Shown here: positions 57,001 through 60,000 of the stretch, in pieces
How positions within the stretch are numbered: the stretch's first letter is position 1
Layout: each line of letters opens with the position of its first letter
Assembly: GCA_965228645.1 (NCBI GenBank)
Contig: OZ245827.1
Coordinates: forward strand, 2,307,694-2,371,693
Direction: 5' to 3'
Origin: Phycisphaerales bacterium
GTDB taxonomy: Bacteria; Planctomycetota; Phycisphaerae; Phycisphaerales; UBA1924
DNA: 64,000 bases
Position numbers: made by a program

Positions 57001-60000
57001 CGCGTCCGTCCACCAGCCCTCGAGCACCTGGCTCGTCAGGTTGCCGCGACGGATGTATTCGTTGTTCACGTCGGTAATCTCCAGCTCGCCCCGCTTGGAT
57101 GGCTTGAGCGTCCGGCAGATACTGAACACCTCGTTGTCGTAGAAGTAGATCCCCGTGACCGCAAGATTGCTCTTAGGCTCGCTGGGCTTCTCTTCGATCG
57201 AAACGATCTTGCCGCCCTCAACCTCGGCGACGCCGAAACGCTCCGGATCGGGGACTTCCTTGAGCAGAAGTTTGGCGCCGTCCTTCTGCGTGAAGAAATC
57301 GCCCGCGGCCTGCCTGATGTTGCCCTCGATGATGTTGTCGCCCAGCACCACGCAGACCTTGCCTCCGTCTGCGAAGTCCTCGGCGAGCTTGAGCGCGTCG
57401 GCGATCCCGCCCTCGCCCTCCTGGTAGCCGTAGGCCAGGTGCTTGACACCCAGTTCCTTGCCGTTGCGGAGGAGCTTGAGGAAATCCCCGGCGTGCTCGC
57501 CGCCGGTGACGATCATGATCTCGTCGAGCCCCGCGTTGAGCAGACACTGGATGGGGTAGTAGATCATCGGCCGATCAAAGACCGGGAGCAGGTGCTTGTT
57601 GGTGACCAGCGTCAGGGGCCGGAGCCTGGAACCGAGGCCGCCGGCGAGGATGATGCCCTTCATGGAAACGTCGCCTTTCTACGGGAGTTCCAGCAGTCTA
57701 GTCAGGTTGGCCCTGACCTCCTGTGCATCGGCGGACTCCCTGTCCGGGATCAGCCCGACCCGGTAGGATGACCCATACGGAGGGCCGAAAATGCGACCAA
57801 CCCCATGCATCCTGATCTCTTGCCTCACCCTTGCGCTCCTCTCGTTCGGAGGGTGCGAGGAGTCCACAAGCACCCCCGCGAATAACTCACCGAATCAGGG
57901 TGGTACGGGTGCCCAGAGCCAGCTCGGGAAATCGGTCGAGATGGGCAAGGATCTCCGCGAGCAGATCCAGGGCAGGGACATGGCTGCCGGCGCCATGGCC
58001 GACACGATCTCCGGCGGCGACAGCGCTGTCCAGATCGGCGGACTGACGATCCCGATCCCGACCTCCTGGACGAAGGTCGCGCCCTCAAACTCGATGCGTC
58101 TGGCTCAGTACGAAGCCGACAACGGCGAGGTCGTCATCGCCTTCAGTCAGGCGGGCGGGTCCGTGGAAGACAACATCAGCCGATGGGCCAATCAGGTCAC
58201 CCAGAACGGGCAGCCCGTCTCGCCTGACGTTCAAAGGTTGACGGTCGCGGGGTTCCCCGTCTCGATTGTGGATCTTGCAGGCACCTACTCGGAGGGCGGG
58301 ATGACCGGCGCGCCGACGGTGCACTCGAGCTACGCCGTCAAGGGCGCGATCATCGATCTGGGCGCCACCAAGACGTTCATCAAGATGACGGGCCCGATCT
58401 CGCTGGTCGACGACCACGCGTCCAACTTTGAGAACATGATCCGGGGCATCGCCCGGAACTGAGACGTGTCTAAGCGGCAAGCTCGCCCGAGATCATCTTG
58501 TCGTACCACTCGCGACGTTTCGGATCGCCCAGAACCGCGTAGGCCTTGGCGATGCGGTCGAATTTCTCCGTCGCACCAGGCGAATGGTCGTGGTCCGGGT
58601 GGTGCTTCTGTGCCAGCTTGCGGTAGCTGCGTTTGATCTCGTCAGCCGACGCGGATGATTCCACGCCCAGGACCTCGTAGAGGTTCTCGAAATCGATAAA
58701 GGCCTGCGGGCGTTCCGAGGCTTTCCCGCCGGTGTTTGCCGACGCGTTCGCTGGCTGGCTTTCCCCGTCATCGCCCGAGATTCGGGTCGTTTTGTTCGCA
58801 AACCCGAACTGCCCGAGCTGGCGGAGCGCCATACCGACGGTGGGCCTGTGGTCGACGATCTGGAACCCTGCTTCGTAGATCGCTGGGATCCAGCAGACGC
58901 GCCGGACCCACTGCACGCGGGCCTTGACGGCCAGCTGCTTCGACTCGGTGCGGATGCGGATCTCGTGGATCTCGCCCTTCTTCAGGTCCAGTCGCTTGCG
59001 TGAGGAAAGACGAAACCCAGTCTCGGAGACATCGCGCACGGTGCCCACCGGGCACGAGAGCGTGTTGGTCTCGAACCGCTGAGCATTGCGAGGCATGTGC
59101 AGGCGCGAAGATGACCCTTTGGTGCCAAGACCCATAAGCACAAGGGTCGGTCACAAAGGCGATCGGCTTGACTGAGTTTCAGGACTCCCCCGCCCGGGGC
59201 GAGGAAGAAGAGAGTTATCTGACCCCGAGCAGCTCGATCTCAAAGATCAGATCGGCTTTGGGGGGGATGCTGGGCGGGGCGCCGTGGACGCCGTAACCGA
59301 GCTGGAACGGGACGGTCAGCTTGCGCTTGCCACCGACCTTCATCCCGGGGATGCCTTCCTGCCAGCCTTTGATGAGATTCGAGAGAGGGAATTCGATCGG
59401 CTGGCCGCGCTTGTACGACGAATCGAATTCGGTGCCGTCCATCAGCGTGCCGCGGTAATGCACACGGACAATCGCGCCAGACGGGCACTCTTGACCTGTC
59501 CCAACGACTGAATCTTCAATGATAAGCTCACTCACAGACTGGCTCATACTCATCTCCCTCAAGACTGCACACACGCCGATCGAAGGCTCCATTCAATTCC
59601 ACCGATCGGTAAGGATGGTTGTCTCGCCGGAAGGAAATAGCTAGCTTCAGATCCTGAATTGGTAGGTAATTTCCCTGTGCCTTTGTCGGAGCAAGATCCT
59701 GCCACAAACAGGGGCCGCACGAGCGGGCCTGTCCAAAATCTGCGAGAATTGAGCCCATGGAAAACATCAACCGCCGACGCTTCATCGCTGCGACCTCACT
59801 GACCGCCATGTCCGGAATGGCAGGAAAGTCCCTCGCATCGCACTTTCAACGCAGGGAACCGGGGGACGATCATCGCGGCCCGGTGAGTGTGGCTTCTGGG
59901 AACGGCATGCGAGCCGTCGAGCGGGCCTGGGCGTGGATGAAAGAGGGTCGCGACACCGCTGAGGCTGTGGTCGCCGGCGTCAAGATCGTCGAAGAGGACC

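What a model noticed while it worked through the whole genome (the two positions that open the first line are those of the whole stretch)
58470..59096. PilZ-J-domain fusion: candidate c-di-GMP-gated Hsp70 co-chaperone
g2013 (208 aa) joins a PilZ domain with intact RxxxR and DxSxxG motifs to a J-domain with HPD. Reading: c-di-GMP binding gates recruitment of DnaK to clients. New: second-messenger control at the J-protein level.
Evidence so far: Domains. R3, R7, D22, S24, G27 and H166-P167-D168 invariant in 13 sequences down to 53% identity. 26 homologs at E<=1e-25; named ones are Phycisphaerales. PMC10313047 passages describe PilZ-DnaK and no PilZ-J fusion.
(Added by a program. Inside this text positions count along the whole contig: contig position 2,307,694 is position 1 of the stretch shown here. 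"Call 12" and the like, gene names such as g00115 and contig names such as C1 are that model's own, and its searches are not shown. The text may have been shortened before it was handed on; [...] marks where a part breaks off. The agent that wrote the report below was given it as the finding of a first reader that could run no searches.)

Follow-up and report, generated by a model that had tools for sequence, protein, structure and literature searches.

The report
c-di-GMP-sensing J-protein with degradation tag
This gene encodes a conserved bacterial protein that joins a PilZ domain, predicted to bind the messenger c-di-GMP, to a chaperone-recruiting J domain and ends in a likely degradation tag, so it likely directs the DnaK chaperone to chosen targets when the signal is high; fusions of these two domains are already on record, but I found no bench study of how they work.

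Summary
The fusion is real: PilZ, a variable linker, then a J domain, on the minus strand; the start is probably 13 codons further upstream (59135, 221 aa). The family is far larger than 26: 135 of the best 150 50%-identity representatives share the layout, with HPD in 135/135 and both c-di-GMP motifs in 109/122. It occurs as one match per genome in 86 of 301 genomes of the order, with no conserved neighbours. The idea is not new: a Myxococcus paper lists PilZ proteins with a DnaJ domain, the ESM Atlas holds DnaJ/PilZ clusters in several phyla, and this scan noted three other PilZ+J layouts on other DNA. Best reading (inferred): a short-lived, ClpXP-turned-over adaptor whose ligand-bound PilZ binds a client and tethers DnaK to it. 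Ligand binding, DnaK stimulation, client and degradation are all untested.

The parts
58470..59135 (-). PilZ-linker-J gene, probable full length 221 aa (208 aa if started at 59096)
   Evidence: start argued from homologs
59097..59135 (-). N-terminal extension of 13 residues before the PilZ domain; in the family basic, Pro-rich and often Trp/Phe-bearing; possible membrane-contact or docking peptide (inference)
   Evidence: 114 of 122 members have >=8 residues here; Trp in positions 2-8 in 42 of 106 against 141 of 2505 genome ORFs
58800..59096 (-). Canonical PilZ domain: beta-barrel plus C-terminal helix (residues 1-99, numbering from 59096)
   Evidence: Pfam PF07238; model pLDDT 89-97 over these residues; Z 12.3, rmsd 2.2 over 99 residues to YcgR PilZ with c-di-GMP, 5y6g
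59076..59090 (-). RxxxR motif (R3, R7)
   Evidence: R3 in 112 of 122, R7 in 123 of 123 rows covering the position
59016..59033 (-). [D/N]xSxxG motif (D22, S24, G27)
   Evidence: D 125 + N 5 of 132; S 132 of 133; G 133 of 133
58800..58844 (-). PilZ C-terminal helix ending in a conserved G-F; candidate client-binding surface (inference)
   Evidence: helix 85-97; G98 in 131 of 135; role of this helix in other PilZ proteins from 10.1101/814665 section 11
58710..58796 (-). Low-confidence, variable linker
   Evidence: pLDDT about 55-57; length 7-87, median 26, in 135 rows
58488..58685 (-). J domain of DnaJ/CbpA type
   Evidence: Pfam PF00226; 34 of 61 and 34 of 62 identical to the genome's CbpA-like and DnaJ J domains, 9 of 31 to its HscB-like protein; Z 13.2, rmsd 1.1 to CbpA J domain 3ucs
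58593..58601 (-). HPD motif
   Evidence: 135 of 135 rows
58473..58481 (-). C-terminal LAA, likely ssrA/CtrA-type ClpXP degron
   Evidence: AA invariant in 27 close homologs; 90 of 135 family rows end in AA against 59 of 2505 genome ORFs; genome tmRNA tag ends YALAA

Best explanation
The protein is a class C J-domain co-chaperone of Phycisphaerales that likely acts as a short-lived, c-di-GMP-dependent targeting adaptor for DnaK. Inferred steps: (1) c-di-GMP binds the RxxxR/DxSxxG site of the PilZ domain; (2) the ligand-bound PilZ domain, through its C-terminal helix, binds a specific client, most likely a part of the motility or surface-attachment machinery; (3) the J domain, held on a flexible tether, stimulates the housekeeping DnaK next to that client, which remodels or disassembles it; (4) the C-terminal AA makes the adaptor itself a ClpXP substrate, so it is cleared together with other signalling and motility proteins that carry the same end. 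Shown here: architecture, motif conservation, fold, distribution, the AA enrichment. Not shown: steps 1-4.
For: Both c-di-GMP motifs intact in 109 of 122 N-complete members at about 30-35% identity, HPD in 135 of 135: selection keeps both functions in one chain. PilZ half matches ligand-bound YcgR, MrkH, Alg44 and MotI/DgrA structures (Z 10.9-12.3). Genome has 5 GGDEF proteins with G[G]DEF/GGEEF sites, 2 EAL, 3 HD_5 matches, one DnaK over its cut-off and an HscA/HscB-like pair; the J domain resembles DnaJ/CbpA, not HscB. Linker length varies 7-87 and two models leave the domains unplaced (pTM 0.45, 0.56), which fits tethering. 85 of 86 genomes with the gene have fliM, against 248 of 301 overall. 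AA end: 90 of 135 family rows; 5 of 7 PilZ, 9 of 15 c-di-GMP-family and 16 of 36 signalling proteins of this genome against 59 of 2505; 12 different codon pairs encode it; ClpX passes its cut-off and keeps RKH, GYVG, RDVS; AA, VA and AG ends are ClpXP degrons of CtrA, GdhZ, PleC, KidO, TacA, ShkA in Caulobacter (10.1101/2020.04.29.069633 section 10). PilZ proteins of five related genomes end in AA in 11 of 30 cases.
Against: No client is identified: neighbours are not conserved across 33 loci (commonest neighbour in 8 of 33). [quoted passage not shown] Deleting the M. xanthus PilZ proteins with DnaK or DnaJ domains gave no motility, EPS or development defect. The fliM link is confounded by kinship: 47 of the 53 fliM-negative genomes are one family where the gene is rare (3 of 44 fliM-positive, 0 of 47 negative). 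An AA end is not always the degron (CckN). The AA signal is weaker outside PilZ proteins in relatives: GGDEF 3 of 29 against aminotransferases 0 of 30 (p 0.11), and 0 of 10 PilZ proteins in one genome of another family of the order.
Confidence: 0.45

Rival explanations
1. The PilZ domain is a client-binding or scaffolding module whose action does not depend on c-di-GMP occupancy; the protein is a dedicated co-chaperone for a fixed client, possibly another PilZ protein, as CsdK2 is for CdbS.
For: CsdK2 binds CdbS without needing either c-di-GMP motif; PlpA precedent; the genome has two close stand-alone PilZ paralogs (E 5e-21, 4e-14 to the family's PilZ profile).
Against: R7, S24, G27 are near-invariant at about 30% overall identity; a ligand-independent module would be expected to lose them, as CsdK1 lost half the motif.
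Confidence: 0.2
2. Direct allosteric gating: apo-PilZ masks the J domain (or c-di-GMP dimerises the protein), and ligand binding switches DnaK stimulation on.
For: Conserved residues flank the linker on both sides (G98-F99-[VI] and A-x-[VI]-E-[VLI] before the J domain); Alg44 PilZ dimerises through the same helix.
Against: Neither model places the domains together (pTM 0.45 and 0.56); the top covariation pairs lie inside domains (only 135 rows, weak test); linker length varies twelvefold.
Confidence: 0.15
3. Triage adaptor for proteolysis: PilZ captures the client, DnaK loosens it, and the AA tail docks the complex on ClpX so that the client is degraded in a c-di-GMP-dependent way, a functional analogue of PopA.
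For: The AA tail sits a median 9 residues behind the J domain; many motility and signalling proteins of the genome end in AA; c-di-GMP-driven ClpXP delivery through PopA is known in Caulobacter.
Against: An AA end engages the ClpX pore and leads to the bearer's own degradation in the cited cases; stand-alone PilZ proteins without J domain carry the same end, so the tail is not specific to the fusion.
Confidence: 0.12
4. A c-di-GMP-responsive sink that competes with DnaJ/CbpA for DnaK and lowers general chaperone output, with no client of its own.
For: There is no DnaJ-type client domain or G/F region; only J and PilZ are present.
Against: The PilZ C-terminal helix and the N-terminal extension are conserved beyond what ligand binding needs; dedicated class C J proteins such as AtcJ work through a partner (PMC6715715 abstract).
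Confidence: 0.06

Closest known systems
M. xanthus PilZ proteins with a DnaJ domain (Kuzmich et al. 2021, PMC8316039)
   Same: [quoted passage not shown]
   Different: Domain order and size could not be read (Fig. 1 is a picture); deletions had no phenotype and no mechanism was studied; homology to this family not tested.
CsdK1/CsdK2 PilZ-DnaK chaperones (Seidel et al. 2023, PMC10313047)
   Same: PilZ fused N-terminally to a part of the Hsp70 system.
   Different: The fused part is the Hsp70 itself, not the co-chaperone; client binding did not need the PilZ motif; no PilZ-Hsp70 fusion among this genome's 7 PilZ matches.
Class C J-domain proteins (AtcJ, DjlA, HscB)
   Same: J domain with HPD joined to a non-DnaJ targeting part; AtcJ binds its partner through a short extension (abstract).
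   Different: J domain is C-terminal, the targeting part is a second-messenger receptor; no NCBIfam model reaches its cut-off.
PilZ adaptors MapZ, YcgR, MotI/DgrA
   Same: Canonical PilZ fold with both motifs and the C-terminal helix used for partner binding.
   Different: They inhibit their target by binding; here a J domain would bring an ATP-driven remodeller.
Caulobacter ClpXP substrates with AA/VA/AG ends (CtrA, PleC, GdhZ, KidO, TacA, ShkA) and the c-di-GMP adaptor PopA
   Same: Same terminal dipeptides on signalling proteins.
   Different: Different phylum; I found no paper on such degrons in Planctomycetota; no adaptor homolog was sought here.
Other DnaJ/PilZ clusters in the ESM Atlas and earlier notes of this scan (J-Zn ribbon-PilZ; PilZ-PATAN-J-TPR)
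   Same: The two domains in one protein.
   Different: Different layouts and phyla (commonest Acidobacteriota, Myxococcota, Pseudomonadota); kinship with this family not tested.

Membership tests
[quoted passage not shown] | Pfam PF07238 over cut-off | tested here: met
   26.8 bits against 22.5
[quoted passage not shown] | RxxxR and [D/N]xSxxG motifs | tested here: met
   present in the protein; both in 109 of 122 N-complete members
[quoted passage not shown] | beta-barrel followed by a C-terminal helix | tested here: met
   model; Z 12.3, rmsd 2.2, 99 aligned to 5y6g
[quoted passage not shown] | binds c-di-GMP | not testable with these tools
   needs ITC, DRaCALA or similar
J-domain proteins | four-helix J domain with HPD between helices II and III | tested here: met
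   HPD in 135 of 135
J-domain proteins | stimulates Hsp70 ATPase | not testable with these tools
   needs ATPase or complementation assay
Class A/B J proteins (DnaJ, CbpA) | N-terminal J domain, G/F region, DnaJ_C domains | tested here: not met
   J is C-terminal, no DnaJ_C match, all DnaJ models far below cut-off; so class C by the definition in PMC10410713
HscB/HscA Fe-S co-chaperone | HscB J domain plus HSCB_C | tested here: not met
   no HscB model among the 14 NCBIfam hits of this protein; 9 of 31 identical to the genome's HscB-like protein
CsdK-type PilZ-DnaK | Hsp70 nucleotide- and substrate-binding domains | tested here: not met
   absent from the 221-aa protein
M. xanthus PilZ-DnaJ proteins | homology over both domains and same order | not tested
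   sequences not held; figure not readable
ssrA/CtrA-type ClpXP substrates | free C-terminal AA (or VA, AG) | tested here: met
   ends in LAA; 90 of 135 AA, 109 of 135 within AA/AG/VA/SA/GA/AS
ssrA/CtrA-type ClpXP substrates | degraded by ClpXP, stabilised by AA-to-DD | not testable with these tools
   needs degradation assay; CckN shows AA is not always the signal

The most novel reading that the evidence does not exclude
Phycisphaerales run an undescribed, Caulobacter-like ClpXP proteolysis programme over their c-di-GMP, chemotaxis, flagellar and pilus proteins (about half of this genome's AA-ending proteins), and the PilZ-J protein is its chaperone arm: when c-di-GMP rises it brings DnaK onto the motor or pilus machinery to take it apart or hand parts to ClpXP, and is then destroyed itself. 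This would be the first second-messenger-switched J protein and a chaperone-driven motile-to-sessile switch.
Probability: 0.2. Interest if true: 0.8.

Novelty: new variant of a known kind. Interest (0 to 1): 0.5.

Why it matters
J proteins decide where Hsp70 acts. A small, two-domain J protein with an intact c-di-GMP site is about the simplest system in which to ask whether a second messenger can switch Hsp70 targeting, a question left open by the Myxococcus PilZ-chaperone work; it can be tested in E. coli and in vitro without culturing the host. The AA ends point to regulated ClpXP proteolysis of the signalling network in a Planctomycetota lineage for which my searches found no such report.

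Tried and rejected
Synteny as a clue to the client: no conserved neighbour in 33 loci; the FKBP and lipoprotein neighbours recur in only 3 of 33. Fixed PilZ-J contact: not seen in two AlphaFold2 models; the interdomain pairs in the covariation list join near-invariant columns and are artefacts. Expression: no RNA holder listed; two RNA runs of a same-label sample gave 0 laid reads, which is no test. Named-organism scan with the wide alignment did not run, the alignment being too diverse. Search for longer fused forms with the alignment looked only at 567-2000 aa and found nothing at E<=1e-20, weak evidence. The 1026-aa member P0266 has no further Pfam domain, so it gives no fusion clue. J-domain tree (35 family rows, 32 class A/B rows, 68 columns): family on one side of a branch with support 54/86; one origin neither shown nor excluded. 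No sigma-70-like promoter in 58300-59800; four terminator-like hits, all inside the ORF span, not used. AA as a DNA-level or gene-calling artefact: rejected, 12 codon pairs, normal stop usage, stable across score thresholds. HscA as partner: considered less likely from J-domain similarity. Literature searches without a study of a PilZ-J protein: (15 of 48 listed, all author-name hits); none on degrons or c-di-GMP signalling in this lineage; PilZ absent from main text and the one text supplement of the J-protein census PMC10410713.

Full report
Observation. Pfam finds PilZ at 18-86 (26.8 bits, cut-off 22.5) and DnaJ at 138-199 (E 2e-24). A protein search returned 26 full-length homologs (52-83% identity, E<=4.4e-56), the two named ones Phycisphaerales, then only J-domain matches. 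In their alignment HPD and the last two residues, A207-A208, are invariant in 27 of 27 rows, and R3, R7, D22, S24, G27 are present in the 26 rows that cover them. The start is probably the in-frame ATG at 59135 (221 aa): 6 of the 26 homologs have another residue where the window has Met at 59096, and 114 of 122 wider family members have at least 8 residues before RxxxR; this extension is basic and has Trp among residues 2-8 in 42 of 106 cases against 141 of 2505 genome ORFs (start calls of other pipelines are uncertain). Residue numbers below count from 59096.

Family. The exhaustive search listed its best 150 representatives at 50% clustering; 135 of the 150 have PilZ followed by J, the other 15 are multi-J proteins. 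In an alignment of the query with 134 of them (the 1026-aa one left out), mostly 28-38% identical to the query, HPD is in 135 of 135, R7 in 123 of 123, D/N22 in 130 of 132, S24 in 132 of 133, G27 in 133 of 133, R3 in 112 of 122; both motifs are complete in 109 of 122 rows with an intact N-terminus. The linker is 7-87 residues long (median 26). The full-length profile matched 86 of 301 genomes of the order, one match each (includes the unpublished G391 as one count), 15 of 301 of the class, two of them outside the order, and among listed rows 4 of 301 of the phylum, all in the order. These are lower bounds, since at most ten candidates a genome were scored. Neighbours are not conserved: over 33 loci the commonest recurs 8 times and the window's own neighbours 3 times. 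85 of the 86 carriers have fliM against 248 of 301 overall, but 47 of the 53 fliM-negative genomes are one family where the gene is rare (3 of 44 with fliM, 0 of 47 without), so this is weak.

Structure. With the deep alignment AlphaFold2 gives mean pLDDT 88, a PilZ barrel with C-terminal helix 85-97, a low-confidence linker and a four-helix J domain; pTM is 0.56 (0.45 with the shallow alignment), so the domains are not placed relative to each other. The PilZ half aligns with ligand-bound YcgR (Z 12.3, rmsd 2.2, 99 residues), MotI/DgrA, MrkH and Alg44; the J half with CbpA (Z 13.2, rmsd 1.1, 69 residues). No NCBIfam model reaches its cut-off. The J domain is 34 of 61 and 34 of 62 identical to the genome's CbpA-like and DnaJ J domains and 9 of 31 to its HscB-like protein; the genome has one DnaK over cut-off and a second Hsp70 closest to HscA. 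DnaK is therefore the likely partner (inference). The c-di-GMP network is present: 7 PilZ, 5 GGDEF, 2 EAL, 3 HD_5 matches.

The C-terminal AA. The protein ends in GELAA; the genome's tmRNA tag ends in YALAA. 90 of 135 family rows end in AA and 109 in AA/AG/VA/SA/GA/AS (this wider set was chosen after seeing the data). With my own crude gene calls (2505 ORFs of 80 aa or more), 59 end in AA against a mean of 31 at interior offsets. Among genes picked by family search alone, AA ends 5 of 7 PilZ, 9 of 15 PilZ/GGDEF/EAL/HD_5 and 16 of 36 signalling proteins (Fisher p 5e-12 and 5e-18). A Pfam scan of the other 43 AA-ending genes adds 15 that I class as motility or signalling (FliH, MotA, FlhA, a YcgR-like protein, PilB-MshEN, a PilT-like ATPase, CheX, an MCP fragment, kinases, STAS, SpoIIE; two of these below cut-off), so 31 of 59. 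Twelve codon pairs encode the AA, so selection is on the protein. ClpX passes its cut-off and keeps the RKH, GYVG and RDVS loops (their role in tag recognition is recalled). In Caulobacter, terminal AA, VA or AG mark CtrA, GdhZ, PleC, KidO, TacA and ShkA for ClpXP, although CckN ends in AA and does not use it (10.1101/2020.04.29.069633, section 10). In five relatives PilZ proteins end in AA in 11 of 30 cases (11 of 20 in three families, 0 of 10 in a fourth) and 0 of 5 in two genomes outside the class; other ORFs in these loci do so in 5 of 65. GGDEF proteins of five relatives give only 3 of 29 against 0 of 30 aminotransferases (p 0.11; wider set 11 of 29 against 2 of 30, p 0.005; one duplicate locus dropped, one has an internal stop). 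The tag is thus firm for this family and genome and suggestive for the lineage.

Mechanism. Most likely (0.45) a tethering adaptor: c-di-GMP-bound PilZ binds a client through its C-terminal helix, the element that mediates partner binding in MapZ, BcsA and Alg44 (10.1101/814665, section 11); the flexible J domain then triggers DnaK at the client; ClpXP keeps the adaptor short-lived. The client is unknown; the motility or attachment machinery is my guess from the classic PilZ targets, the shared AA end and the fliM co-occurrence, and DnaK systems acting on pilus motors are reported in cyanobacteria (PMC13710413, abstract only). Rivals: ligand-independent client binding (0.2; CsdK2 binds CdbS without either c-di-GMP motif, and PlpA has the motifs but was reported not to bind); direct autoinhibition or dimerisation (0.15; no modelled contact, dimer untested); delivery of clients to ClpXP (0.12); DnaK sink (0.06).

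What is known. [quoted passage not shown] The ESM Atlas lists a 319-member DnaJ/PilZ cluster, commonest Planctomycetota, and further clusters with both domains, commonest Acidobacteriota, Myxococcota or Pseudomonadota (leads, no alignment). Earlier notes of this scan describe J-Zn ribbon-PilZ and PilZ-PATAN-J-TPR proteins (unchecked), and none matched this sequence. The J-protein census PMC10410713 does not mention PilZ in passages or its text supplement; its architecture lists may still hold it. Searches for a bench study of any PilZ-J protein and for degrons or c-di-GMP signalling in this lineage found none; the library lacks most subscription papers, and bioRxiv supplements were closed.

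Verdict. A real, well-conserved class C J protein with a PilZ receptor; a new variant of a recurring, untested kind rather than a new kind. The added value is the likely ClpXP degron shared with the host's signalling and motility proteins. Interest 0.5.

Noticed in passing
whole genome G000 (e.g. C1:816313-832749, 1678924-1691548, 2281805-2282762): About half of the 59 AA-ending ORFs are signalling, chemotaxis, flagellar or pilus proteins, suggesting a ClpXP-controlled set as in Caulobacter.
   Followed up: partly
P0204: A family member with PilZ-J-PilZ layout, ending in RAA; the second PilZ resembles the stand-alone paralogs.
   Followed up: no
P0266: PilZ-J followed by about 820 residues without Pfam match, Pro/Ser/Thr-rich.
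   Followed up: partly
G000:C1:2981775-2982137 and 2483396-2483890: Two stand-alone PilZ proteins of the same subtype as the fused domain; one ends in LAA, the other in KAG.
   Followed up: partly
G000:C1:237722-239590 and 1954811-1955317: HscA-like Hsp70 and HscB-like J protein lie far apart, each just or well below the NCBIfam cut-off.
   Followed up: partly
window 50936-54398 (+): Four tandem paralogs of 228-254 aa with signal-peptide-like starts and a C-terminal P-x-P, hydrophobic stretch and RRRR tail (PEP-CTERM-like, recalled); the first has a weak DUF4114 match. They follow a 1388-aa TPR protein (46486-50652).
   Followed up: no
window 54507-57663 (-): Four nucleotide-sugar genes in a row that look like a dTDP-rhamnose set (nucleotidyltransferase, cupin-type epimerase, reductase, dehydratase); two checked by Pfam.
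   Followed up: no
window 59215-59547 (-) and 57791-58462 (+): FKBP-type PPIase just upstream on the same strand and a convergent lipoprotein-like ORF without Pfam match; both recur beside the gene in only 3 of 33 loci.
   Followed up: partly
whole genome G000: 56 ORFs end in GC, nearly as many as end in AA; probably the secreted proteins with the C-terminal module seen in window ORF 62467-63471.
   Followed up: no
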